The position numbers and the translations under genes were made by a program. Below, piece after piece: positions 1 to 11,465 of a stretch of 11,465 nucleotides of DNA. The notes under the pieces were generated by a model. It saw only the letters and a program-made list of their open reading frames with translations, searched no databases and was not told where the DNA came from. Source of the stretch: Nanobdellota archaeon (GTDB taxonomy: Archaea > Nanobdellota > Nanobdellia > Woesearchaeales > JAHWHD01). The stretch's first letter is position 1. Every line of letters begins with the position of its first letter. The DNA lies in the NCBI GenBank assembly GCA_034722435.1, contig JAYENX010000038.1, positions 1 through 11,465 of the forward strand, read 5' to 3'.

Positions 1-57
1 AGAGTTAAGTATGTGTTGAAAATGAGAAGATTGAGGAGATTGCTTAGGGGGTGGTGA
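1..57 (+). CDS. 3' end of an upstream gene (partial, ...RVKYVLKMRRLRRLLRGW*)
   Basis: Frame 1 is open from position 1 to TGA at 55-57, abutting or overlapping the start of the next ORF as in the rest of this gene chain. Too short to assign a product. Confidence 0.45.
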   Translation, partial: RVKYVLKMRRLRRLLRGW

Positions 58-620
58 ATGTGCAAGTTAGTGAAGTTTATGAAAGATTAGATGATCTTGA
101 GGATAAGTTAAGGTTTGATTTGCGTAAAGCGTTTACGCCGGAGCAAGAGTTTCAAGCTCATGCGGATTTTTCTAGAGAATATCTTTTAGCGATGGGTAAA
201 GAGGTTCCTTATCAACTTATAGAGAAATCGGTAAGGGAGGCTCTGATTATGGATGAGGTTTGGTTGAAGCTTGACAAGGTTAAGTTTAGTTATAATAATC
301 TTGTTAGAGAATTGACAACTATAAGAAGAGATGCAATAGCTAAATCTTTAGTGACTGGTGATGGACCTGATGATGTACATTCTTTGACACAAGTTTTTGA
401 AAAATATGAAATAAATCCTGTGCAAGATACTTTCACTAAGGCGGTTTATTTGATAAGTCAGACAAGAAAGGATGTTATACAGACCAAATATGGACATAAA
501 ATTTTGAGAATGAAAGAGTTATTGACTCCTAATCATATGACTTTTTCGGAATTTATTCTTTTTAAAAATGGGTATGCAACTAGTACTTTTAATGGTGGGG
601 TGGATTCTAATGTCGCTTGA
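51..620 (+). CDS. hypothetical protein, predicted mostly alpha-helical (~186-189 aa)
   Basis: Long ORF with the same T/G-ending codon style as other + genes, overlapping the next gene by 11 nt. The true start may be GTG 54 or GTG 60; the SD-like GGGGGTG at 47-53 fits 60 best. No motif recognised. Confidence 0.8.
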   Translation: MVNVQVSEVYERLDDLEDKLRFDLRKAFTPEQEFQAHADFSREYLLAMGKEVPYQLIEKSVREALIMDEVWLKLDKVKFSYNNLVRELTTIRRDAIAKSLVTGDGPDDVHSLTQVFEKYEINPVQDTFTKAVYLISQTRKDVIQTKYGHKILRMKELLTPNHMTFSEFILFKNGYATSTFNGGVDSNVA

Positions 621-3066
621 TGAAAAAATAGAATTATGTTATTTAGCAATAGGTGAGCTTGCGCTCGGTACAAAAGTATATGACCCTCGGGCTATGGATG
701 GTTTGGCTTTGTTCCTTAGAGTGAATGGTTTGGATAAGAAAATTCAGCAACTTGTGATTGATTCTGGTATAATGCCTTTAGTGCCATCATATTATGGGCT
801 TTCAAATGCGAAAAATATGCGATTTCTTGGAGTGGATAAAACTCAAAGTCCTAATCAAAGAGCTGAACTTGTTCTTAGAAGTGATATTGAGAAGAAAGAA
901 AAAGAGTATATTGAGAATTTTGTGTTACATAAAATTACTAGTAAGGAGCAGGCTGCGGGTTTTGCTAAACAGGAGCTGGAGAAATTGCTTACGGTGTTAG
1001 GTGATGTTGAGACTCATTATATTCATGGAGAAGAGGATAGAAAGAATATAGAAGCTTTGGAAGAGTTGAAGATTAATGATTATATGAGGATTGAGCAGAA
1101 TCAAGGAGATTTGGAGGATAAATTAAAGCGAACAAAACATGCTCATGATAAAGCTGTTGTTGGACTTGATGAGACTGAAAAAGAAAAGAAGTTGTTGCAG
1201 TGCGCGCGACGGTATTTGCGGTTGTATACTGGAAATGAATTTAAGAAACGTGTGAAAACTTTTATTGAGAAAAAGGCTGAAGAATTTCAGCACTTAAGTA
1301 TCGGTGATGCAAATAAGTTAAAACATTTTTTGAGGACTGCAAGGAATGTTGCAGATGTTAAGACTAAATTACAAGATGTTTACGGGGATATAAAAGATCT
1401 TAACAATGAAATAAAGTATAATGAAAAATCTGCGCGTGATTGCCAGATTACTTTGAATGCTATTGCTAGAGAGAAAGAAGCGTCAGGTTTTTTTAGGATA
1501 ACAAAGAGACAGCAGATACAGGCCGATGAAGAAGAGATTTTGTTTAGGCTTGCGAAAAAAGAATATAATGATTTGTTGTATTCTATTGTTTCGAATGGTA
1601 AGTTTCATGTGCATACTGATAATTATGCTGAGGTTGAGTTTAATGGTTTTAAATTGCGAGTTTATCATAGTATGAATTCTAATTCTGATGCTTCTTGTAC
1701 TGATTCCCTTGCCAGAATGAAGAAAGAGAATAATTCTGAGAGTAAATATGGTGGGGAAATATCTGACGTTGTGATTTCTGTGCATGGTAAAGGGGGATTT
1801 AGATTTCAGCCTACTCCAAAACAGACAGAGGATACTGTGAAGGGTGAGGAAAGGGAGACTCCTGAGCTTGTGATGGATATGAAGTTGCCTACATTTCAGT
1901 CGTACTCTGCATTGAAATGGGCACGTAAAAAGAATTTGAAAAATTGGCATACTAAACGTTATGATTCTAAGAATTATGCTTCGGGTGCTGTAATCCATAC
2001 TGTAAAAGAGAATGGCGTGCAGGAGGTTGAATATATAGATATGCTTGATTTGATAGAGTTTGGTGAGATAAGTGGAGAGATACAATTATTAGAGCAAAAG
2101 ATTGTAGATACTAAGAGTTCTAGGCAAAAAAAGAAGTTACAAAAAAGGGTAAATGAATTAATAAATCTGGTTAAAATTGAGACTGAGAAAATTGAGGTTT
2201 CAGGTGATCAACATGTTGGTTGTCCTAATGTACCGGGAAGGCCGAGTAATTATGACTTTATCAGTGCAAGTCAAGTTTATCAAACTGACGCTGGTCTTCC
2301 TTGTCTTATTGTGACTTCTGAGGTTTTGCATGGTACATTGCAAAAGATTTTTTCTAGTAATAAACAATACTTTTCCGAGGTTCCTAAAAAAAGAGAGGAT
2401 CTTGAGAAAAAGATTGTAGAGGATACTTCTTTAAGTGATGAGGAGAAGGTTGCAGAGTTGCAAAAATTTTACAAAGTACAGCATGAATCGACACCTATCA
2501 CGAGTAATTCTGTGGCCAAGTTAGAAGTGAAAAGGAGAGTTGTTCCGTATCTTGAGAAAATTCTTGAAAATGGTGGGACTGTTGTGTTGGTTAGCGGTAA
2601 TCATTATAATTGTTCAACTGGTGAGGATGAGGCATATGAACTTGCTTCTATGCTTGATTTGAAATATGTTGATAATGGTCAAGTGCAAATTTTTGACGGT
2701 CTTGGTGCAAAGTATGGTTCCGGGACAATGCGGTTGCCTAATGGTAAGAAATTGTATTCAGCTCATAAACCGCAGAATGGTACTGATGAAGTTGCGGGGG
2801 CGATGAATCAAGTATTGAAAGCTAATTTGGATGCTGCAATTTTTGTGTTTTTTGATAGGCATCATTGCGGAGGCGGGTATGCTAATGGTTCTGCGTTTGT
2901 GGCTGCGCCCGGAATGCAACCTTGGAATAAGTATGTTGATGCAATAGGTAAGTGTCCTGGGTTAAGGGGGTTGGTTAATATGTTCTATGACCCTGGTAAA
3001 CGATATTTTAAGTGGGAATTTGTTCTGGATCCGACACTTGAGGGGGTTATGAAAAATGAAAAATAG
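610..3066 (+). CDS. tandem calcineurin-like metallophosphoesterase-fold protein with coiled-coil insertion (~818 aa)
   Basis: C-terminal domain has the MPP motifs in order: SGDQHVG (DxH), VTSEVLHG (motif II variant), VSGNHY (GNH), YSAH, FFDRHH, then APGMQ. The N-terminal half has degenerate equivalents: AIGELALG, VIDSGIMP, IHGEED, RVYH, ISVHG, LPTFQ. Start placed at ATG 610 (SD-like GGGGTGGA at 597-604) rather than 568. Confidence 0.8.
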   Translation: MSLDEKIELCYLAIGELALGTKVYDPRAMDGLALFLRVNGLDKKIQQLVIDSGIMPLVPSYYGLSNAKNMRFLGVDKTQSPNQRAELVLRSDIEKKEKEYIENFVLHKITSKEQAAGFAKQELEKLLTVLGDVETHYIHGEEDRKNIEALEELKINDYMRIEQNQGDLEDKLKRTKHAHDKAVVGLDETEKEKKLLQCARRYLRLYTGNEFKKRVKTFIEKKAEEFQHLSIGDANKLKHFLRTARNVADVKTKLQDVYGDIKDLNNEIKYNEKSARDCQITLNAIAREKEASGFFRITKRQQIQADEEEILFRLAKKEYNDLLYSIVSNGKFHVHTDNYAEVEFNGFKLRVYHSMNSNSDASCTDSLARMKKENNSESKYGGEISDVVISVHGKGGFRFQPTPKQTEDTVKGEERETPELVMDMKLPTFQSYSALKWARKKNLKNWHTKRYDSKNYASGAVIHTVKENGVQEVEYIDMLDLIEFGEISGEIQLLEQKIVDTKSSRQKKKLQKRVNELINLVKIETEKIEVSGDQHVGCPNVPGRPSNYDFISASQVYQTDAGLPCLIVTSEVLHGTLQKIFSSNKQYFSEVPKKREDLEKKIVEDTSLSDEEKVAELQKFYKVQHESTPITSNSVAKLEVKRRVVPYLEKILENGGTVVLVSGNHYNCSTGEDEAYELASMLDLKYVDNGQVQIFDGLGAKYGSGTMRLPNGKKLYSAHKPQNGTDEVAGAMNQVLKANLDAAIFVFFDRHHCGGGYANGSAFVAAPGMQPWNKYVDAIGKCPGLRGLVNMFYDPGKRYFKWEFVLDPTLEGVMKNEK

Positions 3067-3214
3067 AATTCAAAGGTTTGTTTTGTATTCAAGAGAAGAA
3101 AGGCTGGTTGAGCCGAAATATGGTATTCATGATAGGGGTCTTCTTTCAAGATTGAACCCTGAATATTATAAAATTATAAGGGGGGATAAATATGAGTCTA
3201 ACAGAAAAAGTTAG
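3056..3214 (+). CDS. small hypothetical protein, 52 aa (MKNRIQRFVLYSREERLVEPKYGIHDRGLLSRLNPEYYKIIRGDKYESNRKS), absent from the ORF track
   Basis: ATG at 3056 with GAGGGGGT at 3040-3047 (8-nt spacing). The frame stays open across the whole gap, overlapping the upstream gene by 11 nt and the protease start by 23 nt. Confidence 0.6.
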   Translation: MKNRIQRFVLYSREERLVEPKYGIHDRGLLSRLNPEYYKIIRGDKYESNRKS

Positions 3215-4187
3215 AAAATATTGTACAAGATTAGTTGCTTCCGCAGTGTTGGCTGCTACTGTAATGGCGCCAGCATCTTGTGCTGAAGCTATGATTAATT
3301 ATCCGCAGCAGAATGTGGTTCAACAGGTTGGTATGCGGGAATATTCTAGGTTTGTTAAAGGAGCTTTTGATAAGAAATATGATAACCATAACATGTTTTA
3401 CAAAGAGTCTTTAGACGATCTTTTGGATACGACGCATAAAGTTTATGGACATTTAACAATTGAACTTACTAAGTATAGTTATAATGGAAATAAGGTTGTA
3501 AAACATAAAGTTGAGAGAACAATGACTGGTCAGGGTTCTGCTGTAGTTGTTGGCAATGATGGAGATAAATTAACTTTGGTAACTGCTAATCATGTAGTTA
3601 ATCCTCCTCCTTTTAAAGATGTTTATGATGTTAAAGGGAGACCTGTACTTACGCATAAGGTTAAGGAAGTTAATTATATTCTTGAACAGACTGATTTGTT
3701 TGTACCGGTGGTTGCATTGCCGTTTGTTGGGACATCGAGGTTGAGTGTGGGCCCTGAGTTAAAGGTAGTTGCCCGTGACAAGGCTCGAGATATTGCTATA
3801 ATCCAAACTAAGAAAGAATTTAGTGACCATATTAAACATTATAAAACAATTAATCGCTGGGGTAATTCTAAAGAGTTAAAGGTTGGCGATTTTTTGTATG
3901 CTGTAGGTTTTCCAAGAAATATAACTAAACAATTAGCTTCAGGGTATGTGTCTGCTAAAGGTAATCCGTTTACTCCTGGTGATGATCACAGGTTTATAGT
4001 TGATATGTCTGTTAACCCTGGTAATTCTGATGGGCCTGTATATGCTTTAAGAGATGGTAAGCCTGAACTTGTTGGAATTGTGAGTAGTAAATGGCCTGAA
4101 GGTATTGGCGGAATAATTAGGATTGATTCTGTTAAAAAGTTAATGGCAAAAATTGGTCTTAGTAAGTTGTTAGGTGTGGCGAAATGA
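3192..4187 (+). CDS. secreted trypsin-like (S1, HtrA/DegP-like, no PDZ) serine protease
   Basis: Catalytic triad motifs TANH(134), RD(200)IAII and NPGNS(279)DGP, plus GSAVVV and VGD..YAVGFP. N-terminal signal peptide (basic n-region, LVASAVLAATVMAPA, AEA cleavage site). G-rich SD at 3180-3186. Confidence 0.9.
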   Translation: MSLTEKVRKYCTRLVASAVLAATVMAPASCAEAMINYPQQNVVQQVGMREYSRFVKGAFDKKYDNHNMFYKESLDDLLDTTHKVYGHLTIELTKYSYNGNKVVKHKVERTMTGQGSAVVVGNDGDKLTLVTANHVVNPPPFKDVYDVKGRPVLTHKVKEVNYILEQTDLFVPVVALPFVGTSRLSVGPELKVVARDKARDIAIIQTKKEFSDHIKHYKTINRWGNSKELKVGDFLYAVGFPRNITKQLASGYVSAKGNPFTPGDDHRFIVDMSVNPGNSDGPVYALRDGKPELVGIVSSKWPEGIGGIIRIDSVKKLMAKIGLSKLLGVAK

Positions 4188-4414
4188 CCTCGAAAGATGT
4201 GATTGATCGAGAGAATGATGCGGAGGTTAAGTTTAGGTATGTACGAAATAAGTTTGGTAAGTGTCCTGCTTTGGAATATTCAGGGTCTGAAGGTTACTGT
4301 ACAAAACTAATACCTTGCGATCAGTATTCTTCTGATGATTTTGTTTCGGTCAAACATCCCTGGGAGAAAGTTAAAAAGATGTATTGTAAATGTAAATTTG
4401 TTGAGAAGAATTGA
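4184..4414 (+). CDS. small Cys-rich hypothetical protein (76 aa)
   Basis: ATGA start/stop overlap with the protease, AGGTG SD at 4172-4176, and 5 Cys (C27, C39, C45, C68, C70). Confidence 0.7.
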   Translation: MTSKDVIDRENDAEVKFRYVRNKFGKCPALEYSGSEGYCTKLIPCDQYSSDDFVSVKHPWEKVKKMYCKCKFVEKN

Positions 4415-4423
4415 AAAAAAAAA
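4414..4423 (-). terminator. oligo-T tract (T10 on minus strand), probable archaeal terminator of the HIT gene
   Basis: A10 run on the + strand about 35 nt past the HIT stop codon. Oligo-T tracts are the established archaeal intrinsic terminator signal. Confidence 0.5.
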
Positions 4424-4457
4424 CGGGATTGAATAAGAAGGGGTGGGATTTGATGAA

Positions 4458-5501
4458 TTAATTATTTTTTAATATTTCAATTGCTTTTTTTATTTCTTCT
4501 TGTTCAGGTGTTAATGGTTTAGATTCTTTTGGTTCTATTTTTTTAAGTTTTTGTTCTTTTCTATTATTAGCTTCGTGTTCAACTAAAAACATGGCATCTT
4601 TTATTTTTGAAGCTAGTTCTTTAAAGTCTGGTTTGTTGTCGATTGGTTTGCAAAGTAAATCTAAACCGTCGTCTTGGTACCTTGGTAGGATGTGTAGAGA
4701 TAATTTTTCATCTGTGTTGTCTTCACATTTGCCTGTTTTAAGAATTATATTTGAACCGTGTGCGCCCAGGCCTTCAAAAGCTGCGGTTGCTGCATATGAT
4801 GCTACATAGAAAATGTGTGAACCTGATTCGAAGTTTAATTTTTCAAACAGTTTAGGTTCTTCTTTAGAGTATATTGTCATGTGGCCTGTGCACATTTGGT
4901 TTTCGGGTGCAATACAGATTACTTTTTCGTCTTGGTAAAGTATTTGTTCAGGTTTTATGAAATTTAGATGTTCTGGTATAGTGCTTGTATTTCCTGTTTG
5001 CCAGTTTACTGGTGTTCTTTTGAAATGGTTTTTTAGCATTATTGGCATGTTTTGTGCTAGCATTGTATTAATCTGTTTATTTTTTGATTCATCTAATTTG
5101 CCTTTTTTGTTGAATGCAAATTTTGTGATTCCGTCATTTTTTTCTCTTGGTAAAACGTGCATTAAAAAGTGTGGAGATTGTTGGCCTGCTACGCCTCCGT
5201 TGGCAATGAAGACATTAGCGCCTGAGCAAAGAATTGATTTTTTTAAGGCTTTAATCATTGCAGGAAGATTGCCAAAGATGTGTTGAAATGTTTTTACAGG
5301 AATGTATGGCATTATAGGGTAATGTTCTTTTGGATAAAGAAGAATGTGGCCAGTGGTCCAAGGGTTGATGTCAAGGATTCCAAACATTAGTTTGTCATCG
5401 TAAGCAATACTTGCCGGGATTTCTCCTTTAGTTATTTTACAGAACGGACATTGTTCTTTCTGTTCATCTAGTTGTGCCTGGACTTCAGGTGTTATTTCCA
5501 T
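4458..5501 (-). CDS. tandem HIT (histidine triad)-fold protein, both triads degenerate
   Basis: Domain 1: CPFCKI, YDD, LDINP, GHILLYPKEH, NGGVAGQQSPHFLMHVLPR. Domain 2: ILYQDEKVI, TGHM, GSNII, KLSLHILPRY. Charged C-terminal tail. Confidence 0.88.
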   Translation of the reverse strand: MEITPEVQAQLDEQKEQCPFCKITKGEIPASIAYDDKLMFGILDINPWTTGHILLYPKEHYPIMPYIPVKTFQHIFGNLPAMIKALKKSILCSGANVFIANGGVAGQQSPHFLMHVLPREKNDGITKFAFNKKGKLDESKNKQINTMLAQNMPIMLKNHFKRTPVNWQTGNTSTIPEHLNFIKPEQILYQDEKVICIAPENQMCTGHMTIYSKEEPKLFEKLNFESGSHIFYVASYAATAAFEGLGAHGSNIILKTGKCEDNTDEKLSLHILPRYQDDGLDLLCKPIDNKPDFKELASKIKDAMFLVEHEANNRKEQKLKKIEPKESKPLTPEQEEIKKAIEILKNN

Positions 5502-5523
5502 GATTAGGATCTGGGTATGGTTG

Positions 5524-5531
5524 TTTATAAA
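5524..5531 (-). promoter_or_regulatory. TATA box (TTTATAAA) of the HIT gene, probably a leaderless transcript
   Basis: Consensus archaeal TATA ending 22 nt before the ATG, with no SD in between. Confidence 0.6.
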
Positions 5532-5621
5532 TTTAATGTTTGGTAGTATGTACCTAGCTTGTTTATACTCTCTATGTGAAAGTATTTTGTTTTTTCTTTA
5601 ATTTTTATGTATATACCCTAA

Positions 5622-5666
5622 ATTATATAAATGTAAGATTTATTTTTATTATTATAGTTGAGGTGA
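5622..5666 (+). promoter_or_regulatory. TATA box (ATTATATAAA) and SD (GAGGTGA, 5660-5666) of trxB
   Basis: Archaeal consensus elements; the SD lies 6 nt before ATG 5673. Confidence 0.65.
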
Positions 5667-5672
5667 ATTAAT

Positions 5673-6623
5673 ATGGTTGAAAATAATGATAATAATAATG
5701 TTTACGATGTTATTGTAATAGGAACAGGGGCTGCAGGGTATACTGCTGCAATCTATGCTTCCAGGTATAAACTTAAGACTTTAGTGATTGGGAAAGAGTT
5801 TGGCGGTGTAGCTGCCGAGGCTTACATTGTAGAAAATTATCCTGGTTTTGAATCTGTAAAGGGGTTTGATCTTATGGAAAGTTGGAGAAAGCACGTAAAA
5901 GCTTTAGGTGTACAGGTTAAACCTGGAACTGTGGATGGATTGAATAAAATTGAAGAGGGGTTTGAAGTTTTTGTAGGGGAGAAAACTAGGTATGTTGCTA
6001 AGAGTTTAATTTTAGGTATTGGTCTAGAACGGAGAAAGTTAAATATTGAGGGCGAAGAGGAGTTGTTGAGCAAAGGTATACATTACTGTGCAACTTGTGA
6101 TGCTCCTTTTTACAAGGGTAAAGTTACTGCTGTTGTAGGGGGTAGTGATAGTGCTGCGTCTGCTGCTTTACTTTTAGCTGAATACTGTCCTAAAGTTTAC
6201 ATTATTTATAGAAAGGATAAATTGAGAAGTGAGCCTTACTGGACAGATCTTGTAGAGAAGAATGATAAGATTGAAGTTATTTATACTACAAATATTACAA
6301 AAGCGATTGGTAAGGATAAGTTAGAAGCTATTGAGCTTGATAAAGAGTTTAATGGTTCAAAGAAATTGAAACTTGATGGTTTATTTATTGAAATTGGTTC
6401 AGTTCCTAACTTGGCACTTATTGAAGAACTTGATTTGGATCATGATGGTGGATATATTAAGGTTAATACTAAACAAGAAACTTCTTTATCAGGGGTTTGG
6501 GCGGCAGGAGATGTTACGTCAGGGTCTTTACCCTTGAAACAAATCATTGTTGCAGGTGCTCAAGGTGCACAGGCTGCTAATGGTGCTTTTATCTATGTGA
6601 AGACTTTGGCTTCTAAGAAGTGA
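5673..6623 (+). CDS. trxB: thioredoxin-disulfide reductase (FAD-dependent)
   Basis: FAD motif VIVIGTGAAGYTAAIY, VENYPG, redox-active HYCATCD, NAD(P)H motif VVGGSDSA and the second FAD motif TSLSGVWAAGDV. Confidence 0.95.
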   Translation: MVENNDNNNVYDVIVIGTGAAGYTAAIYASRYKLKTLVIGKEFGGVAAEAYIVENYPGFESVKGFDLMESWRKHVKALGVQVKPGTVDGLNKIEEGFEVFVGEKTRYVAKSLILGIGLERRKLNIEGEEELLSKGIHYCATCDAPFYKGKVTAVVGGSDSAASAALLLAEYCPKVYIIYRKDKLRSEPYWTDLVEKNDKIEVIYTTNITKAIGKDKLEAIELDKEFNGSKKLKLDGLFIEIGSVPNLALIEELDLDHDGGYIKVNTKQETSLSGVWAAGDVTSGSLPLKQIIVAGAQGAQAANGAFIYVKTLASKK

Positions 6624-6650
6624 TTTTTTTAATTTTTTAAATATTTTCTT
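6624..6650 (+). terminator. T-rich tracts downstream of trxB, probable terminator
   Basis: TTTTTT AA TTTTTT immediately after the stop codon. Confidence 0.45.
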
Positions 6651-6673
6651 TTATATTTCTTATCACAATTATC

Positions 6674-6681
6674 TTTATAAG
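6674..6681 (+). promoter_or_regulatory. TATA box (TTTATAAG), leaderless spacing to ATG 6704
   Basis: 22-nt gap to the ATG, the same as for the HIT and Zn-ribbon genes. Confidence 0.55.
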
Positions 6682-6703
6682 TGGGTCTTATTTTTTGAAT
6701 TAT

Positions 6704-7429
6704 ATGAAAGGTTACCAAAATGTTAAAGGGAGTAATATAGTTTTGGCAAGTAGAGGTACTTATCGTTTAGCAGGGGATAAGTATAAACGAGTTCTTTTAA
6801 TGACTAAATATACTGATGCAACAGAGTTTGAAATATTGAATGCGTTGAGTAGTGCTGCTGATAATGTGATGTTTGGTCATGATGATGAATTTGGTGCTCT
6901 TGAAAAATGTATTGTAGAGTTTCAGCCAGAGGTGTGGGATGAATTAGCTAATGATCCTGTAGAACTTTTGGAAAGGCTTGATATTAGTATTGATGTTGGT
7001 GATGCTGAAGTTTTGATGATGAAGTTAGGGGTTGTCTCTCCTGATATATTGAGATATGCTCGGCAACATTATAATGATTCTTTTTTGTATAAAGAACTTT
7101 TTATGGGTGGACAACCTCCCGGACAGGAGATTTGCGGAGTAAAAGTTTATCTTCAAGAAAATATGTTGCCTTTGCCTGATATGGTTAATATGCTTTTAGC
7201 ATGTGGAGTTAGGAAATCAGATGTGTTAGATATTTCTGGAGATTATTATTTCGCTGAAGATTTGGTTGATAATTTTTATGAATTTGAGGATATAAATAAT
7301 GTGGGAGATTCGAGTGATTATTTTTTACTAGAAGATTGTGCAAAAGTTTTAGCGTGTATAGATGAAAGATTGGTTGTTGATGATGGTAGTGAAGACCCTG
7401 TTGATAGAGATGAAGTTGCTGTAAATTAA
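6704..7429 (+). CDS. acidic hypothetical protein (~241 aa)
   Basis: Long ORF with resident codon style. Start moved from TTG 6695 to ATG 6704 on TATA spacing. Hand count gives about 48 D/E versus about 20 K/R. Confidence 0.8.
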   Translation: MKGYQNVKGSNIVLASRGTYRLAGDKYKRVLLMTKYTDATEFEILNALSSAADNVMFGHDDEFGALEKCIVEFQPEVWDELANDPVELLERLDISIDVGDAEVLMMKLGVVSPDILRYARQHYNDSFLYKELFMGGQPPGQEICGVKVYLQENMLPLPDMVNMLLACGVRKSDVLDISGDYYFAEDLVDNFYEFEDINNVGDSSDYFLLEDCAKVLACIDERLVVDDGSEDPVDRDEVAVN

Positions 7430-7434
7430 TAACA

Positions 7435-7442
7435 TTTATATA
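7435..7442 (+). promoter_or_regulatory. TATA box (TTTATATA), leaderless spacing to ATG 7465
   Basis: Perfect consensus with a 22-nt gap to the ATG. Confidence 0.6.
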
Positions 7443-7464
7443 TTTCATTGTAGTATTTCTTATT

Positions 7465-7659
7465 ATGACTGATTTGTATGATGATTGGAAATCGCATGTG
7501 AAGAAAGAACTTTCTGAGCTAAAGGATTTAGATAATACTAAAGTGGAGGCTAAATGTCCGAAATGTTTGACATTTAATCTGGAGTTCGATCCTTCGACTG
7601 GTAAAGTTCATTGTAAGAATTGCGGGTATGAAGATTATATAATTAAGGTTATGAAATAA
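7465..7659 (+). CDS. small zinc-ribbon protein (TFIIB/TFB-type ribbon), 64 aa
   Basis: CPKC-x15-CKNCG with LEFDPSTGKVHC, resembling the TFB N-terminal ribbon pattern CPxCG...L.YD..RGE..CxxCG. Confidence 0.85.
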   Translation: MTDLYDDWKSHVKKELSELKDLDNTKVEAKCPKCLTFNLEFDPSTGKVHCKNCGYEDYIIKVMK

Positions 7660-7664
7660 TAACC

Positions 7665-7709
7665 TTTAAATACCCTTTAATTCTTTCTTACTTTATAATA
7701 TTGAGGTGA
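7665..7709 (+). promoter_or_regulatory. TATA box (TTTAAATA, 7665-7672) and SD (GAGGTGA, 7703-7709) of the NYN gene
   Basis: Archaeal consensus elements; the SD lies 6 nt before ATG 7716. Confidence 0.65.
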
Positions 7710-7715
7710 AAATAT

Positions 7716-8330
7716 ATGAAATCGTTACAACATAAAGATCAAAAAGTGGCAATATTGATAGATGTTCAAAATATGTATTATTCTGCTAAGCACATGTTTC
7801 AGGCTAAGGTTAACTTTAAAGAGATTTTGAAAACTGCTGTAGCTGGAAGAAGGTTAATAAGAGCTATTGCGTATACTATTGAAGCGGATATAAAGGGTGA
7901 AGATATTTTTCATAAAGCTCTTGAAAATGTAGGTATTGAAGTTAAGAGTAAAGGTTTGCAAACTTTTATTGGTGGTACTAAGAAGGGTGATTGGGATATT
8001 GGTTTGGCAATGGATGCTGTTCGTTTAGCGAATAAAGTTGATACTTTAGTTATCGTATCAGGGGATGGAGATTTTAAAGATCTTTTGATTTATCTAAAAA
8101 CGCACGGTGTAAGAACTGAGATAATTGCTTTCTCAAGGACTGCTTCAAAATTGATTAAAGTTGAAGCGGATTTGTTTGTTGATATGGAACTTAATAAGAA
8201 AAAGTATCTTATGCCTATGAAGCCTTCAACAAGAAAACCTTCTTTGAAGAAAGTTGTTAAACCTGTTGCACCTCAAGCATTGCCAAAAATGGCGGGTGCT
8301 AAAAAAGGTCCTGTTTTTGTGCCTAAGTAA
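7716..8330 (+). CDS. NYN domain protein (LabA/DUF88 family, PIN-like fold), putative RNase
   Basis: VAILIDVQNMYY, KKGDWDIGLAMD, IVSGDGDF, LIKVEADLFVD, with the acidic catalytic set apparently intact. Basic Pro/Lys-rich C-terminal tail. Confidence 0.9.
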   Translation: MKSLQHKDQKVAILIDVQNMYYSAKHMFQAKVNFKEILKTAVAGRRLIRAIAYTIEADIKGEDIFHKALENVGIEVKSKGLQTFIGGTKKGDWDIGLAMDAVRLANKVDTLVIVSGDGDFKDLLIYLKTHGVRTEIIAFSRTASKLIKVEADLFVDMELNKKKYLMPMKPSTRKPSLKKVVKPVAPQALPKMAGAKKGPVFVPK

Positions 8331-9006
8331 GTTTAACAGCTGTAACAAATTTGAAATAGTTGCTGTTAATGTAAGATTTAGTGTCTTTGACAGAAATTAT
8401 TAAATCTGATTGGTAAGGGATGATTGAGATATCAACATCTTGTTGAGATGCTTTAGTAAGGTCTATCCATTCGGTTTGTTTTCTTAAATCTTTTATTATA
8501 GAATGTACGTGGCCAAGTCGAGTTGAAGACTTTGCTTGGAAATGTTCTATCTTTTTTGAGGTTTGACCTTTTACTATTGTGATAGGAAGATTAACGTCTA
8601 CTAATACGACCTTGTCGTTGATAGATGATTCTGCTGTTGCAGGTTCTAGAGAAATGGAGTACCCAAAACTTTCGAACATGGAAATATTTATACATTTAGG
8701 GAGTCCTTGTTCTACGAACTTGTTTAATTCTTGTTGCATTATTGGTTTTTCTGGAAGGTCGTATGATATTTTCTGGTAAGATGTTTGTAAAAAGTTGGTT
8801 GGATAGATATATCCTCCTTGTAAAGATAAAAGGTTGAGACCGTCATTAGTTACATCTTTAACGCATTGTTGAACGAAGCTTTCGATATCTGACATGCTTT
8901 TCTCTGATGTGGACCTAGGGAATTGGTACAGGAATAGTATTGTGAAACCTAGTAACATTATTATTACACCGATTGTGATGAATATTGTCATTTGTCCTTT
9001 TTTCAT
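8323..9006 (-). CDS. archaeal class III signal peptide (type IV pilin-like) membrane/surface protein
   Basis: N-terminus MKKG|QMTIFITIGVIIMLLGFTILFLY: basic residues, G|Q prepilin-peptidase site, then a hydrophobic helix. Confidence 0.8.
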   Translation of the reverse strand: MKKGQMTIFITIGVIIMLLGFTILFLYQFPRSTSEKSMSDIESFVQQCVKDVTNDGLNLLSLQGGYIYPTNFLQTSYQKISYDLPEKPIMQQELNKFVEQGLPKCINISMFESFGYSISLEPATAESSINDKVVLVDVNLPITIVKGQTSKKIEHFQAKSSTRLGHVHSIIKDLRKQTEWIDLTKASQQDVDISIIPYQSDLIISVKDTKSYINSNYFKFVTAVKLT

Positions 9007-10646
9007 TCTAAATACCTTTCAAATGGTTCAGTTGTAAGTTCTTCAAGTTCTTGGTTTATGCTTGGACTGTTGTACCCAAATATTCTTGTATTTTCTTGAT
9101 ATAGAATGTTATTTATGAATTCAACAGCGGGTGTTGTTGGAAGCAGGTTTGTAGTGTAAACTTGAATTATGTTTTCTGAAGATGAAAATAAAGGTTCAAC
9201 TTGTACATGTCTTCCTTGATTGTTCTCTTTTATAGTGAACTGGCCTGCGTTTGTTATTGTATGTTCTGTTAATGATTCTGCTTCGATTGTGAATCTCTTT
9301 ATAGTATTGAAATCGTTGTCAAGTTCAATGGTTGTAATGGTGTTGGGATCTTCGGATATGTAAAGGTCGGTATCTTTTGAGTATTCGGCTTTGCCTTTGA
9401 TGACTATCTTTTTTTCTATTAAGTCGATGAAACCGTCAACATCTATATAATCTGGTTCAGTAACGCTTTTTCTGACTCTTAACTTGAAATCTTGGTTGAA
9501 CTTGATTGAGAATGATCTGGCGGCTTTATTCCTGTCAGTGTATGTATATTTTGAACCTTTGGCTGCTTCTAGATATTCAATGCCGTCTTCTTCATTATAA
9601 ACAATTTTAGAGTTTCCTTTCGTGATTAAGTTTTCGACAAAGTTGAAAGTAGTAAAGTCGAGTTCTGTGTTTGAAGTTATTACAGTTATTTTTTTACCTA
9701 TTTTGTAAGAGTTTACAATAGCGTCAAAGTCTAAGGTTCTAAATTGGATAAGGTTGTTAATGTTACCTCTTATATCTTTGCCTAGTTTAAGTTTTGTTTG
9801 TGAACCTTGAAAATCTATTTCTACGCCTACCATGTTATCAATGTTTTCAAGTCTGATAGCTGTAGTTGCCCCTGGTATAATCATTACGTTATCGTCAGCT
9901 ATTGATGAGGTTTTAAGATATTTTAGTTTGCCGTTGGAGTCGGTTCGTGCTTCGGTGCCGTCTATTTGTCTTAGAGCTATCTCGCCGTTGTTGAATAAGA
10001 CTGCTGATGTTTCTGTAAATGAGAGCGCTCTATCAGGTGAACCTCTATCATCTATACTTGTTGATCTTCCGACTGAAATGGTTCTCTGGTTAAGGTTCGC
10101 GAGAAGGTTTGCGTAACCTGCTATGAATGTTTGGCCGATTCTTGCGCCGTTTCCTTGTAAGGATTCCAGAATGAATTCGTTATTTATTTTTTTAAGGCTT
10201 AAATCTTTAGCAAGGTCGAGTTGGAATGATTCGCCTAAAGATTCAGGGCCAGTTATCATATTAACGTTTGCTGCATTTTCTATAGTTCCATCTTTGTTTA
10301 TTTGGATGTTTTCTCCATTGTTTACTTGAATGCCTGTAGTTGTGGTTGCTTCATCTAAATTTGAAAATTCCATATTTCCATTTTCATCAACATCGATCTG
10401 ACTATTTTCTTTTACTGAAGCTTGAGAAACTCCGTTAATAGTTTCAGTTGTAGAAGAAGTTTCTGTTGCAGTTACTGATCCTTGTTGTCCATCTTGAAGA
10501 TTTCCTAAGTCTCCGAAAGGGTCATCGGTTCTTATTCCTTCGTATGCAGTTGAAGGTGCATTAGGATCAGGGGGATCTGCTGATACTTGGAATCCTATAC
10601 AAATTAATAAGAATATTACTATCAATGTTGAAATCTTTAAATTCAT
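9003..10646 (-). CDS. large secreted beta-rich cell-surface protein (547 aa), function unknown
   Basis: Sec signal peptide MNLKISTLIVIFLLICIGFQVSA|D, a T/N/D/G-rich N-terminal region and alternating hydrophobic beta-strand patterns. No C-terminal TM helix. 4-nt overlap with the pilin-like gene. Confidence 0.8.
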   Translation of the reverse strand: MNLKISTLIVIFLLICIGFQVSADPPDPNAPSTAYEGIRTDDPFGDLGNLQDGQQGSVTATETSSTTETINGVSQASVKENSQIDVDENGNMEFSNLDEATTTTGIQVNNGENIQINKDGTIENAANVNMITGPESLGESFQLDLAKDLSLKKINNEFILESLQGNGARIGQTFIAGYANLLANLNQRTISVGRSTSIDDRGSPDRALSFTETSAVLFNNGEIALRQIDGTEARTDSNGKLKYLKTSSIADDNVMIIPGATTAIRLENIDNMVGVEIDFQGSQTKLKLGKDIRGNINNLIQFRTLDFDAIVNSYKIGKKITVITSNTELDFTTFNFVENLITKGNSKIVYNEEDGIEYLEAAKGSKYTYTDRNKAARSFSIKFNQDFKLRVRKSVTEPDYIDVDGFIDLIEKKIVIKGKAEYSKDTDLYISEDPNTITTIELDNDFNTIKRFTIEAESLTEHTITNAGQFTIKENNQGRHVQVEPLFSSSENIIQVYTTNLLPTTPAVEFINNILYQENTRIFGYNSPSINQELEELTTEPFERYLE

Positions 10647-10652
10647 AACTTT

Positions 10653-10692
10653 ACCTCTTTTTAAATAAAAAATAGTTATTTCTATATATAAA
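10653..10692 (-). promoter_or_regulatory. TATA box (TTTATATA, 10692-10685) and SD (GAGGT, 10657-10653) of the 547-aa gene
   Basis: Consensus elements on the minus strand; the SD lies 6 nt before the ATG. Confidence 0.6.
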
Positions 10693-10706
10693 TCTTATTA
10701 TTAGAA

Positions 10707-11330
10707 TTAGTCACTTTTGTGTATTAGTTGTTCTAATCTAGATTTCCAAATTTTTACTTGATTATCATTTGGTTTTAATTGAAGATATTTTATTACATGT
10801 TTATGTGCTTCATTAAATCTTCTATTTCTAATCATAAGGTGAGCCACATTTCTTTGAGCTGAAGCTAATTTTGGATTGATTTTTAGAGCTTTTTGATAAA
10901 ATAATAATTCTTTAATTCTATTTCCTTTTTTACCATATGTAATGGCTAAATTATTATGAGCTAAGGCATATTTTGGATTTAATTTAATAGCATTTTGAAA
11001 TGCATTTATTGCTTCATCTAATTTGCCAAGTTTAGTAAATACTCCGCCTATTTCATTGTGAATTTCTGGATTTGTACTGTTTTCATAAGGTCTAAGTAAT
11101 TTTAATGATTTGGTAGGTTTACCACTTAAATTATAACTTCTAGCTTTACTTAAATCGTCTAACTCGCCACCCATAACAGTTCCTACTAAGCTTAATCCTG
11201 CTACTATGACTGCACTTTGTGCGGCTTTTTTAAGAAATGTTCTACGTGATGGGTCAAAAGAATCTTGAGAATACCATGCTTTCAAGCCTTCGTATGCGCT
11301 TTCTGCATATTGTTTTATATCTTCTATCAT
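10707..11330 (-). CDS. TPR-repeat protein with twin-arginine (Tat)-like N-terminal signal
   Basis: SRRTFLK followed by the hydrophobic stretch AAQSAVIVAGLSLVGTVMG, then three 34-aa TPR units. Confidence 0.88.
   Translation of the reverse strand: MIEDIKQYAESAYEGLKAWYSQDSFDPSRRTFLKKAAQSAVIVAGLSLVGTVMGGELDDLSKARSYNLSGKPTKSLKLLRPYENSTNPEIHNEIGGVFTKLGKLDEAINAFQNAIKLNPKYALAHNNLAITYGKKGNRIKELLFYQKALKINPKLASAQRNVAHLMIRNRRFNEAHKHVIKYLQLKPNDNQVKIWKSRLEQLIHKSD
10764..11069 (-). repeat. three tandem TPR motifs (aa ~88-189)
   Basis: 34-residue periodicity: AIKLNPK, ALKINPK, YLQLKPN, with TPR small/large residue patterns (IGGVFTKLGKLDEA; LAITYGKKGN). Confidence 0.85.
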
Positions 11331-11421
11331 GTTTCCCCATTATATATTATGTTCTTTAATCTATATAACTCTTTCCATATATAAAACTTATTGTGTTTGT
11401 AACTGTATGGGGACAGTTATA

Positions 11422-11465
11422 TTTATAAATGCATGGAGCTAGTAAGGTATTGGGGGAAGTATGAA
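11422..11465 (+). promoter_or_regulatory. TATA box (TTTATAAA, 11422-11429), G-rich SD (11452-11457) and probable ATG (11461) of the next + gene
   Basis: Same architecture as other SD-led genes here; the CDS would run off the window edge. Confidence 0.45.

What the first reader, a model, noticed from the sequence alone, without database searches (positions are those of the whole stretch)
610..3066. Internally duplicated metallophosphoesterase: dead N-terminal copy plus potentially active C-terminal copy
All five MPP motif positions can be paired between the two halves. Motif I: AIGELALG vs VSGDQHVG. Motif II: LVIDSGIMP vs IVTSEVLHG. Motif III: YIHGEED vs LVSGNHY. Motif IV: LRVYH vs LYSAH. Motif V: VISVHG vs VFFDRHH. 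Downstream strand: KLPTFQ...ASGAVI vs AAPGMQ...LRGLVN. Both copies also have a helical insert after motif II. Copy 1 has lost most metal ligands (DxH to ELA, GNH to GEE), so it looks like a pseudo-phosphoesterase that may act as a ligand sensor or scaffold for copy 2. The ORF track gives no hint of this architecture, and I know of no characterised protein with it.
Basis: partly seen in the sequence, partly recalled or inferred. Interest (0 to 1): 0.75.

Follow-up and report, generated by a model that had tools for sequence, protein, structure and literature searches.

The report
Tandem dead/live phosphoesterase of DPANN archaea
This gene of a tiny symbiotic (DPANN) archaeon encodes an 818-residue protein made of two copies of the metallophosphoesterase fold, a catalytically dead front copy that carries a long helical arm and an intact rear copy that most resembles proofreading/repair nucleases; the family is unnamed and its substrate is unknown.

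Summary
Window 610-3066 (+) encodes an 818-aa protein (P0004). It has no Pfam, NCBIfam, PADLOC, PHROG or PDB sequence match.

A confident AlphaFold2 model (pLDDT 92, pTM 0.86) shows two metallophosphoesterase (MPP) beta-sandwiches.

The C copy keeps every metal ligand across 69 homologues. The N copy has lost the motif I His, the motif II Asp, the motif III Asn-His and the second motif V His. It is still as conserved as the C copy, and it carries a ~180-residue antiparallel helical arm after motif III.

With that arm excised, profiles of the two halves align in register over all five motifs (hhalign score 32.3; best of 60 shuffles 22.3).

The family has about 190 representatives in 1.8 billion proteins. 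All named members are DPANN archaea, it occurs in 16 of 301 genomes of the phylum, and it lies in chromosomal contexts.

The most likely function is a DP1/Mre11-type nucleic-acid phosphodiesterase with a pseudo-enzyme partner domain, but this is inferred. This scan had already reported the same family eight times on other genomes.

The parts
610..3066 (+). Whole gene: 818-aa tandem pseudo/active metallophosphoesterase (P0004), stop codon included
   Evidence: ORF list and translation. The identical 818-aa product is on record, with full-length homologues.
594..603 (+). Purine-rich Shine-Dalgarno-like run GGTGGGGTGG, 6 nt upstream of the ATG at 610
   Evidence: Read directly from the sequence. 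It supports the 610 start over the in-frame ATG codons at 568, 574 and 592.
622..1029 (+). N-terminal pseudo-MPP, first part (residues 5-140). Holds the degenerate motifs I (E16-L-A18), II (S52-G53) and III (G140-E-E-D143) and a four-helix insert at residues 64-130.
1030..1581 (+). Helical arm inserted after motif III (residues 141-324). Two long antiparallel helices (about 141-203 and 247-290) with a small helical cap at 208-243. It is the least conserved segment.
1582..2049 (+). N-terminal pseudo-MPP, second part (residues 325-480). Holds H335, degenerate motif IV (H353) and motif V (H392-G-K-G), then the conserved LPTFQS and NWHTKR stretches.
2050..2175 (+). Two linker helices between the domains (residues 481-522)
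   Evidence: DSSP helices 478-500 and 504-521, pLDDT above 90.
2176..3045 (+). C-terminal intact MPP domain (residues 523-812) with a four-helix insert at residues 592-653
2206..2214 (+). C-domain motif I, D533-Q-H535
   Evidence: D in 67 of 69 and H in 66 of 69 homologues.
2320..2322 (+). C-domain motif II carboxylate, E571 (Asp in some homologues)
   Evidence: 53 Glu and 16 Asp in 69 homologues.
2596..2604 (+). C-domain motif III, G663-N664-H665
   Evidence: G 69/69, N 66/69, H 69/69.
2764..2766 (+). C-domain motif IV, H719
   Evidence: 69/69.
2854..2862 (+). C-domain motif V, D749-R-H751 (H-x-H in 29 homologues)
   Evidence: Position 749 is 40 Asp and 29 His. H751 is 69/69.

Best explanation
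The gene encodes a single-chain pair of metallophosphoesterase (MPP) domains that belongs to an unnamed DPANN-archaeal family.

**C-terminal domain (residues 523-812).** It keeps a complete binuclear-metal ligand set: D533, H535, E571, N664/H665, H719, D749 and H751. It is the catalytic unit. From its closest structural and profile relatives (PolD DP1, Mre11/SbcD, phage 'DNA polymerase II small subunit' exonucleases), it most likely cuts phosphodiester bonds in nucleic acid, for example as a 3'-5' exonuclease or end-processing nuclease.

**N-terminal domain (residues 5-480).** It has the same fold but cannot build the canonical two-metal centre. It is conserved as strongly as the active domain, so it probably acts as a fixed partner. 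It may provide a substrate- or protein-binding surface, as the dead MPP domains of the eukaryotic polymerase B-subunits and Vps29 do. It also carries a ~180-residue antiparallel helical arm that could mediate oligomerisation or reach.

**What is shown and what is inferred.**
- Shown: the two folds, the ligand pattern, the conservation and the family's distribution.
- Inferred: catalysis, a nucleic-acid substrate, and the roles of the dead domain and the arm.
For: **Fold.**
- Full model: pLDDT 92, pTM 0.86.
- Foldseek on the N half lists MPP folds in most rows, including the best ones, although weakly; best E 2.9e-3.
- The Atlas's ESMFold model gives phage DP1-like MPP clusters for the N half.

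**Ligands.**

**Profile homology, with shuffle controls.**
- N-core against C: score 32.3 (shuffle maximum 22.3).
- N-core against DP1: score 40.0 (shuffle maximum 35.2).
- C against DP1: score 49.0 (shuffle maximum 40.6).
- The five motifs are in register for N-core against C and N-core against DP1. For C against DP1 only motifs III and V are in register.

**Selection on the dead domain.** N segments carry 1.72-1.80 bits per column and the C domain 1.77.

**Architecture.** N1, arm, N2 and C are detected in most longer family members, including distant ones.

**Viral neighbours.** The best matches are phage 'DNA polymerase II small subunit' MPPs, E 1.3e-8.

**Weak hints of DNA binding.** N-terminal extensions of longer homologues give faint winged-helix/HTH hits: HTH_DeoR E 7e-4, RPA_C, DnaD_N.
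Against: - No activity or substrate has been tested.
- The protein itself has no Pfam Metallophos match at E 0.1. Only a few homologues reach about 22-23 bits.
- The window's protein lacks the N-terminal HTH-like extension.
- The gene neighbourhood is not conserved and names no partner.
- Motif II is Glu rather than Asp, and the first motif V ligand is Asp rather than His. These are conservative changes, but they are unproven for metal binding.
- The relative position of the two domains could not be inspected, because no coordinates are returned.
Confidence: 0.6

Rival explanations
1. The C domain is a small-molecule phosphodiesterase (cyclic or linear nucleotides, nucleotide-derived signals, phosphodiester metabolites). 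The dead N domain would be a ligand-sensing regulatory module. This would tie the protein to nucleotide salvage or signalling rather than to DNA ends.
For: - Rv0805 and GpdQ are among the Foldseek hits.
- Some homologues have nucleotide-salvage neighbours: an NT5C-like 5'-nucleotidase next to the gene in L006, L028 and L029, and thymidine kinase plus a deoxyribosyltransferase-like gene in L031.
- A HIT-family gene lies in the window.
- The degenerate N pocket keeps conserved polar residues: E16, E141, E142, D143, N146, H335.
Against: - DP1 stands about 3 Z units above the small-molecule enzymes for the C domain.
- The profile match to DP1 exceeds every shuffle.
- The salvage neighbours occur in few loci, and those loci are partly related.
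- No cyclase or other signalling gene is linked.
Confidence: 0.25
2. The two halves did not arise by duplication inside this gene. Two separately evolved DP1-like MPP genes were fused, and one later decayed.
For: - Each half scores higher against DPANN DP1 (40.0 and 49.0) than the halves score against each other (32.3).
- No pairwise or shallow-profile similarity between the halves was found.
Against: - Measured against its own shuffles, the N-C match is the strongest of the three, about 10 sd compared with about 5.5 sd.
- Both halves share a four-helix insert between motifs II and III. In the N-core alignment to DP1 this stretch falls largely in gaps; whether DP1 lacks the insert was not checked on a structure.
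- No family member with only one of the domains was found among full-length proteins.
Confidence: 0.3
3. It is a single-chain, ATPase-free analogue of the Mre11-Rad50 machine. The dead and live MPP pair would mimic the Mre11 dimer, and the arm would play the role of the Rad50 coiled coil in tethering DNA ends.
Against: - There is no ATPase head.
- There is no CxxC zinc hook; the arm contains 2 Cys in all.
- There is no Mre11 capping domain, since the C domain ends 6 residues before the stop.
- The coiled-coil matches are generic.
- The genome has other canonical MPP genes, including a 410-aa one, and its own DP1.
Confidence: 0.1

Closest known systems
PolD small subunit DP1, phosphodiesterase (MPP) domain (PDB 5ihe, 6hmf, 6t8h, 8ppt)
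   Same: - Profile matches exceed all shuffles.
- All five motifs are in register for the N-core. For the C domain only motifs III and V are in register.
   Different: - No OB-fold domain and no PF04042 match.
- The genome has its own DP1 on contig C28.
- Two MPP domains in one chain, plus a helical arm.
- No link to DP2.
Eukaryotic polymerase B-subunits (Pol alpha, delta, epsilon, zeta) and Vps29: catalytically dead MPP domains used as scaffolds
   Same: - The N domain has an MPP fold without the metal ligands and is strongly conserved.
   Different: - Here the dead domain is fused to a live one.
- It carries a ~180-residue arm.
- No partner protein is known.
Mre11/SbcD nucleases
   Same: - Mre11 works as a dimer of MPP domains. 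That is established knowledge, and this chain could imitate it.
   Different: - No capping domain.
- No Rad50/SbcC partner in the window or in 19 related loci.
- One of the two 'protomers' is dead.
Phage DP1-like MPP exonucleases ('DNA polymerase II small subunit', SPbeta YonJ-like; mycobacteriophage Bxb1 gp47 type)
   Same: - Best Foldseek matches in the viral library, E 1.3e-8.
- Nearest Atlas clusters for both the whole protein and the N half.
- Some of these clusters carry a coiled-coil family (YonJ_CC).
- The Bxb1 recombination directionality factor (gp47) has limited 3' exonuclease activity (PMC11795197).
   Different: - No sequence-level link: tblastn against phage genomes found nothing.
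- PHROGs gave no match.
- hhalign of the C profile against SPbeta YonJ gave probability 0.3%.
- The phage proteins are 400-500 aa with one MPP domain.
MJ0936 (PDB 1s3l), a minimal archaeal MPP phosphodiesterase
   Different: - It is a single 165-residue domain without inserts.
- There is no detectable sequence match.

Membership tests
Calcineurin-like metallophosphoesterase superfamily (PF00149 / PF12850) | Two-layer beta-sandwich flanked by helices (MPP fold) | tested here: met
   [not shown]
Calcineurin-like metallophosphoesterase superfamily (PF00149 / PF12850) | Five motifs that supply the binuclear-metal ligands (DxH, GD, GNH, H, GHxH) | tested here: met
   C domain: D533-x-H535, S-E571 (GD in 16 of 69 homologues), G-N664-H665, H719 and D749-x-H751 (HxH in 29 of 69).

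The N domain does not meet this feature. It has E16-L-A18, S52-G53, G-E141-E142, H353, and H392-G-K-G.
Calcineurin-like metallophosphoesterase superfamily (PF00149 / PF12850) | Match to the Pfam model above its gathering score | tested here: not met
   P0004 has no hit at E 0.1. In A1, 3 of 24 homologues hit at E 3e-5 or weaker. Four distant relatives reach 22.2-23.2 bits against a cut-off of 21.5.
Calcineurin-like metallophosphoesterase superfamily (PF00149 / PF12850) | Metal-dependent phosphoester hydrolysis | not testable with these tools
   This needs purified protein.
PolD DP1 / polymerase B-subunit family (PF04042) | OB-fold domain preceding the MPP domain | tested here: not met
   The MPP halves, the arm and the linker helices account for all residues 1-818. 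DP1 alignments cover only its MPP part, chain residues 336-619.
PolD DP1 / polymerase B-subunit family (PF04042) | Match to PF04042, and status as the genome's single DP1 orthologue | tested here: not met
   P0004 has no PF04042 hit. The genome's DP1 is at C28:2240-2878, 59.4 bits.
Mre11/SbcD | Capping domain after the nuclease domain | tested here: not met
   The C-terminal MPP core ends at about residue 812 of 818.
Mre11/SbcD | Adjacent Rad50/SbcC ATPase gene | tested here: not met
   No SMC-type ATPase lies in the window. None was seen among the neighbours of 19 related loci that were looked at. Not every neighbour was scanned.
Anti-phage defence systems (PADLOC-DB) | Match to any defence-system protein model | tested here: not met
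   P0004 has no PADLOC hit at E 0.1. The loci lie beside EF-2, EF-1alpha and S10 genes in five lineages.

The most novel reading that the evidence does not exclude
The protein is a self-contained pseudo-dimeric nuclease. A dead DP1-like domain would hold or sense the nucleic-acid substrate and position it for the live domain. The helical arm would join molecules into a higher-order assembly. Some genome-reduced DPANN archaea would use this machine for DNA-end processing or for scavenging foreign or host DNA. It would be a new, ATPase-free solution to a task that normally needs Mre11-Rad50 or a polymerase-bound exonuclease.
Probability: 0.2. Interest if true: 0.7.

Novelty: new variant of a known kind. 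Interest (0 to 1): 0.5.

Why it matters
MPP enzymes are well known, and dead MPP domains are known as scaffolds (polymerase B-subunits, Vps29). A conserved single chain that pairs a dead copy with a live copy, with a long helical arm grown out of the dead copy, is not described in any curated family or in the papers searched.

The family is confined, as far as the named records show, to DPANN archaea. Most proteins of these organisms are uncharacterised.

Both halves are nearest to the PolD proofreading subunit. The family may therefore record how a replicative exonuclease domain was duplicated and put to a new use. It also offers a natural enzyme/pseudo-enzyme pair for studying what dead MPP domains do.

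The practical value is modest until a substrate is found.

Tried and rejected
**Searches that found nothing for P0004.**
- Sequence searches against Pfam, NCBIfam, PADLOC and PHROGs.
- PDB by phmmer and by profiles A1 and A5. Only coiled-coil noise came back.
- tblastn against 50,697 phage genomes.
- A pattern scan of IMG/VR viral contigs.

**Comparisons that were uninformative.**
- Direct comparison of the halves by BLASTP, and by hhalign with the arm left in. The signal appeared only after the arm was excised and 69 sequences were used.
- hhalign of the C profile against SPbeta YonJ: probability 0.3%.
- The local Pfam copy has no YonJ families.

**Gene neighbourhood.**
- No universal partner was found.
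- A trypsin-like secreted protease is adjacent only in the closest relatives: the window, L002, L003 and L004.
- A small PD-(D/E)xK-like protein is adjacent or nearby in three loci, but it is not in this window.

**Readings rejected.**
- A mobile-element or defence-island origin. There are no PADLOC hits, and translation genes neighbour the gene in five loci.
- A divergent DP1 or Mre11 orthologue. The genome has its own DP1 and five other MPP genes.

**Literature.** Searches for YydB/YydD, YonJ and 'tandem metallophosphoesterase' phrases gave nothing relevant.

**Tool problems.**
- One genome search failed.

**Unpublished genomes.** G001 and G002 enter only the tallies. Their DP1 loci were left out of the DP1 alignment.
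Full report
**The gene**

The longest ORF runs 568-3066 on the + strand. Three things support a start at the ATG at 610.
- It gives the 818-aa protein that is on record letter for letter (P0004).
- Homologues start at the aligned position.
- A GGTGGGGTGG run lies 6 nt upstream.

The window is a whole 11.5-kb contig of a 1.3-Mb genome that is 94.5% complete. The named homologues come from Woesearchaeota, Nanoarchaeota, Aenigmatarchaeota and Micrarchaeia. This is therefore a DPANN archaeon.

**What sequence methods see**

P0004 has no match at E 0.1 or below in Pfam, NCBIfam, PADLOC or PHROGs, and no meaningful match among PDB sequences. Profiles of the family against the PDB return only coiled-coil noise.

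The family is real and conserved.
- There are 30 word-indexed hits, nearly all 800-1000 aa and covering 96-98% of the query.
- There are 193 representatives at E 0.001 or below among 1.84 billion cluster representatives.
- A few homologues reach the Metallophos models weakly, always in the C-terminal third.
- Segment HMMs detect N1, arm, N2 and C, in that order, in most of the longer members, including distant ones. No complete protein consisting of a single domain was seen.

**The two folds**

AlphaFold2 with a 69-sequence alignment gave mean pLDDT 92.0 and pTM 0.86.

For the C domain, VIA-align on that model places residues 523-811 on these structures:

|---|---|---|---|
| PolD DP1 (6t8h_A) | 18.1 | 219 | 2.8 |
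| Mre11 (4tug_A) | 15.4 | 200 | 3.4 |
| MJ0936 | 14.8 | 163 | 2.6 |
| Pol delta B-subunit (3e0j_A) | 14.6 | 203 | 3.7 |
| Vps29 | about 13.5 | about 170 | about 3.2 |

The N half was folded on its own from an independent 19-sequence alignment built from genomic loci. It gave pLDDT 86.8 and the same secondary structure. An exhaustive VIA-align search of 48,161 chains aligned residues 2-482 as follows:

|---|---|---|
| DP1 (5ihe_A) | 16.7 | 233 |
| Pol delta B-subunit (3e0j) | 15.1 | 212 |
| MJ0936 | 14.5 | 163 of 165 (rmsd 2.7) |
| Pol alpha B-subunit (3flo) | 13.8 | 217 |
| LpxH | 13.1 | 187 |
| Vps29 | 12.5 | 170 |
| Mre11 | 12.5 | 194 |

- The first 47 rows are all MPP folds.
- Foldseek was weak for the N half (best E 2.9e-3), but most of its rows, including the best ones, are the same fold.
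- The ESM Atlas's own ESMFold model of the N half also lands on phage DP1-like MPP clusters, with TM 0.41 by the query and up to 0.69 by the target.

**Motifs and ligands**

In both halves the quoted strings follow equivalent strands.

Across 69 homologues the C domain keeps the full ligand set:

| Position | Conservation |
|---|---|
| D533 | 67 of 69 |
| H535 | 66 of 69 |
| E571 | 53 Glu, 16 Asp |
| N664 | 66 of 69 |
| H665 | 69 of 69 |
| H719 | 69 of 69 |
| 749 | 40 Asp, 29 His |
| H751 | 69 of 69 |

The equivalent N-domain positions are as follows:

| Position | Residues seen | Consequence |
|---|---|---|
| E16 | 48 Glu, 12 Asp | Carboxylate kept |
| A18 | Gly or Ala | Motif I His lost |
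| S52-G53 | mostly Gly-Gly | Motif II Asp lost |
| E141-E142 | mostly Glu-Glu | Replaces Asn-His of motif III |
| H353 | His in 39 of 69 | Motif IV partly kept |
| H392 | His in 45 of 69 | First motif V His partly kept |
| G393-K394-G395 | no His at any of the three | Second motif V His lost |

A canonical two-metal site cannot form in the N domain. Even so, the N segments carry as much information per column (1.72-1.80 bits) as the C domain (1.77 bits). Their best-conserved residues cluster at the degenerate motifs: T21, G52/G53, P56, D143, N146, H335, S359, D386, G396, and K449/R450. The dead domain is therefore under selection for some other role.

**Inserts**

- Both halves have four extra helices between beta2 and beta3 (64-130 and 592-653).
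- The N half has in addition a ~180-residue arm after motif III (141-324). It consists of two long antiparallel helices and a small cap.
- The arm is the least conserved part (1.31 bits per column) and matches only generic coiled coils.
The large arm is a separate, N-specific insertion.

**Are the halves related to each other?**

BLASTP and hhalign with the arm left in found nothing. I then cut the arm out of the 69-sequence alignment and compared profiles:

| Comparison | Score | E-value | Columns | Shuffle control |
|---|---|---|---|---|
| N-core against C | 32.3 | 8.5e-4 | 243 | 60 shuffles: mean 15.5, sd 1.7, max 22.3 |
| N-core against 14 DPANN DP1 | 40.0 | 1.8e-4 | 211 | 40 shuffles: max 35.2 |
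| C against 14 DPANN DP1 | 49.0 | 7.5e-6 | 211 | 40 shuffles: max 40.6 |

- In the N-core/C alignment, motifs I to V and the inter-motif insert are all in register. The reversed C profile scored 11.8.
- In the N-core/DP1 alignment the five motifs are again in register.
- In the C/DP1 alignment only motifs III and V are in register, and the first part is shifted by one motif.

Both halves are therefore DP1-like MPP domains. Their common origin within the superfamily is shown at profile level. Internal duplication is the simpler reading, because of the shared insert and because the N-C match is the strongest relative to its own shuffles. Fusion of two DP1-like genes is not excluded.

**Distribution and context**

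- The gene was found in 1 of 41 close relatives. That tally includes the unpublished genomes G001 and G002.
- It was found in 16 of 301 high-quality genomes of the phylum, mostly as a single match per genome.
- It is not on viral contigs and has no defence-model hits.
- In five loci it lies within a few kb of EF-2, EF-1alpha and S10 genes. It is therefore a chromosomal gene with a patchy distribution, probably through repeated loss.
- No partner gene is universal.
- A secreted trypsin-like protease is adjacent in the window and its nearest relatives.
- NT5C-like, thymidine kinase, caspase-like, AAA and radical-SAM genes appear sporadically.
- The genome has its own DP1 and five other Pfam-detectable MPP genes. 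This protein is therefore not a replacement orthologue.

**Function**

The intact ligand set argues for a working phosphoesterase. Several observations point to a nucleic-acid phosphodiesterase.
- DP1 leads for both halves.
- Mre11/SbcD are strong fold matches.
- The best viral matches are phage 'DNA polymerase II small subunit' exonucleases (E 1.3e-8).
- Longer homologues have faint winged-helix/HTH hits in their N-terminal extensions.

A DP1-like phage protein, the recombination directionality factor (gp47) of mycobacteriophage Bxb1, has limited 3' exonuclease activity (PMC11795197). This is inference from fold and kinship only. A small-molecule phosphodiesterase role remains a serious rival.

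The dead domain most plausibly works like the dead MPP domains of the polymerase B-subunits and Vps29, as a binding surface. The role of the arm is unknown.

**Novelty**

The searches that could have shown a characterised family with this architecture did not. This scan has already reported the same family on eight other genomes with concordant conclusions. Those are AI notes, not independent evidence.

I class the finding as a new variant of a known kind, with moderate interest.

Noticed in passing
window 1-11465: GC skew on the + strand is very high, 0.30-0.44 over the first 8 kb at 32-38% G+C. It falls to about 0.05-0.2 where genes lie on the - strand (9-11 kb). The coding strands are strongly G-over-C biased.
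   Followed up: no
window 3192-4187 (+): A secreted trypsin-like (HtrA/DegP-type, Trypsin_2) serine protease with an N-terminal hydrophobic signal. It lies directly next to the tandem-MPP gene here and in L002, L003 and L004, and nearby in L030 and L033. It is absent from the more distant loci.
   Followed up: partly
window 51-620 (+): A 189-aa ORF overlaps the MPP gene start by 11 nt. It has no Pfam, NCBIfam or PADLOC hit and no homologue in any of 19 related loci.
   Followed up: partly
window 4458-5501 (-): A 347-aa protein with two HIT-domain stretches (PF01230, E 2e-20). It also matches the PADLOC ThsC HIT model (E 4e-9).
   Followed up: no
window 7716-8330 (+): A NYN-domain (LabA-like) predicted nuclease of 204 aa with a basic, Pro/Lys-rich tail.
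   Followed up: no
window 8323-10646 (-): Two consecutive genes (227 aa and 547 aa) without any family match. Each has an N-terminal hydrophobic segment, so they are probably surface or secreted proteins.
   Followed up: no
L028:10700-11026, L030:10511-10918, L002:11883-12251: A small (108-135 aa) protein with a PD...(V/L)E(V/L)K motif and a faint HSDR_N_2 hit, so it looks like a PD-(D/E)xK nuclease. It overlaps or lies close to the tandem-MPP gene in three lineages. It was not found in this window.
   Followed up: partly
L006, L028, L029, L031 (homologous loci): Nucleotide-salvage genes lie next to the homologues. An NT5C-like 5'-nucleotidase is adjacent in three loci. Thymidine kinase and a nucleoside deoxyribosyltransferase-like gene lie downstream in L031.
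   Followed up: partly
G000 contigs C28, C45, C8, C48, C5, C17: The genome carries a canonical PolD DP1 gene (C28:2240-2878) and five further Pfam-detectable MPP genes. Neither domain of the tandem protein is detected by PF00149.
   Followed up: partly
P0015, P0018, P0025, P0110 and other 930-1100-aa homologues: Many family members have a ~100-residue N-terminal extension that looks like a winged helix/HTH. The hits are faint: HTH_DeoR, HTH_11, RPA_C, DnaD_N. The window's protein lacks the extension.
   Followed up: partly
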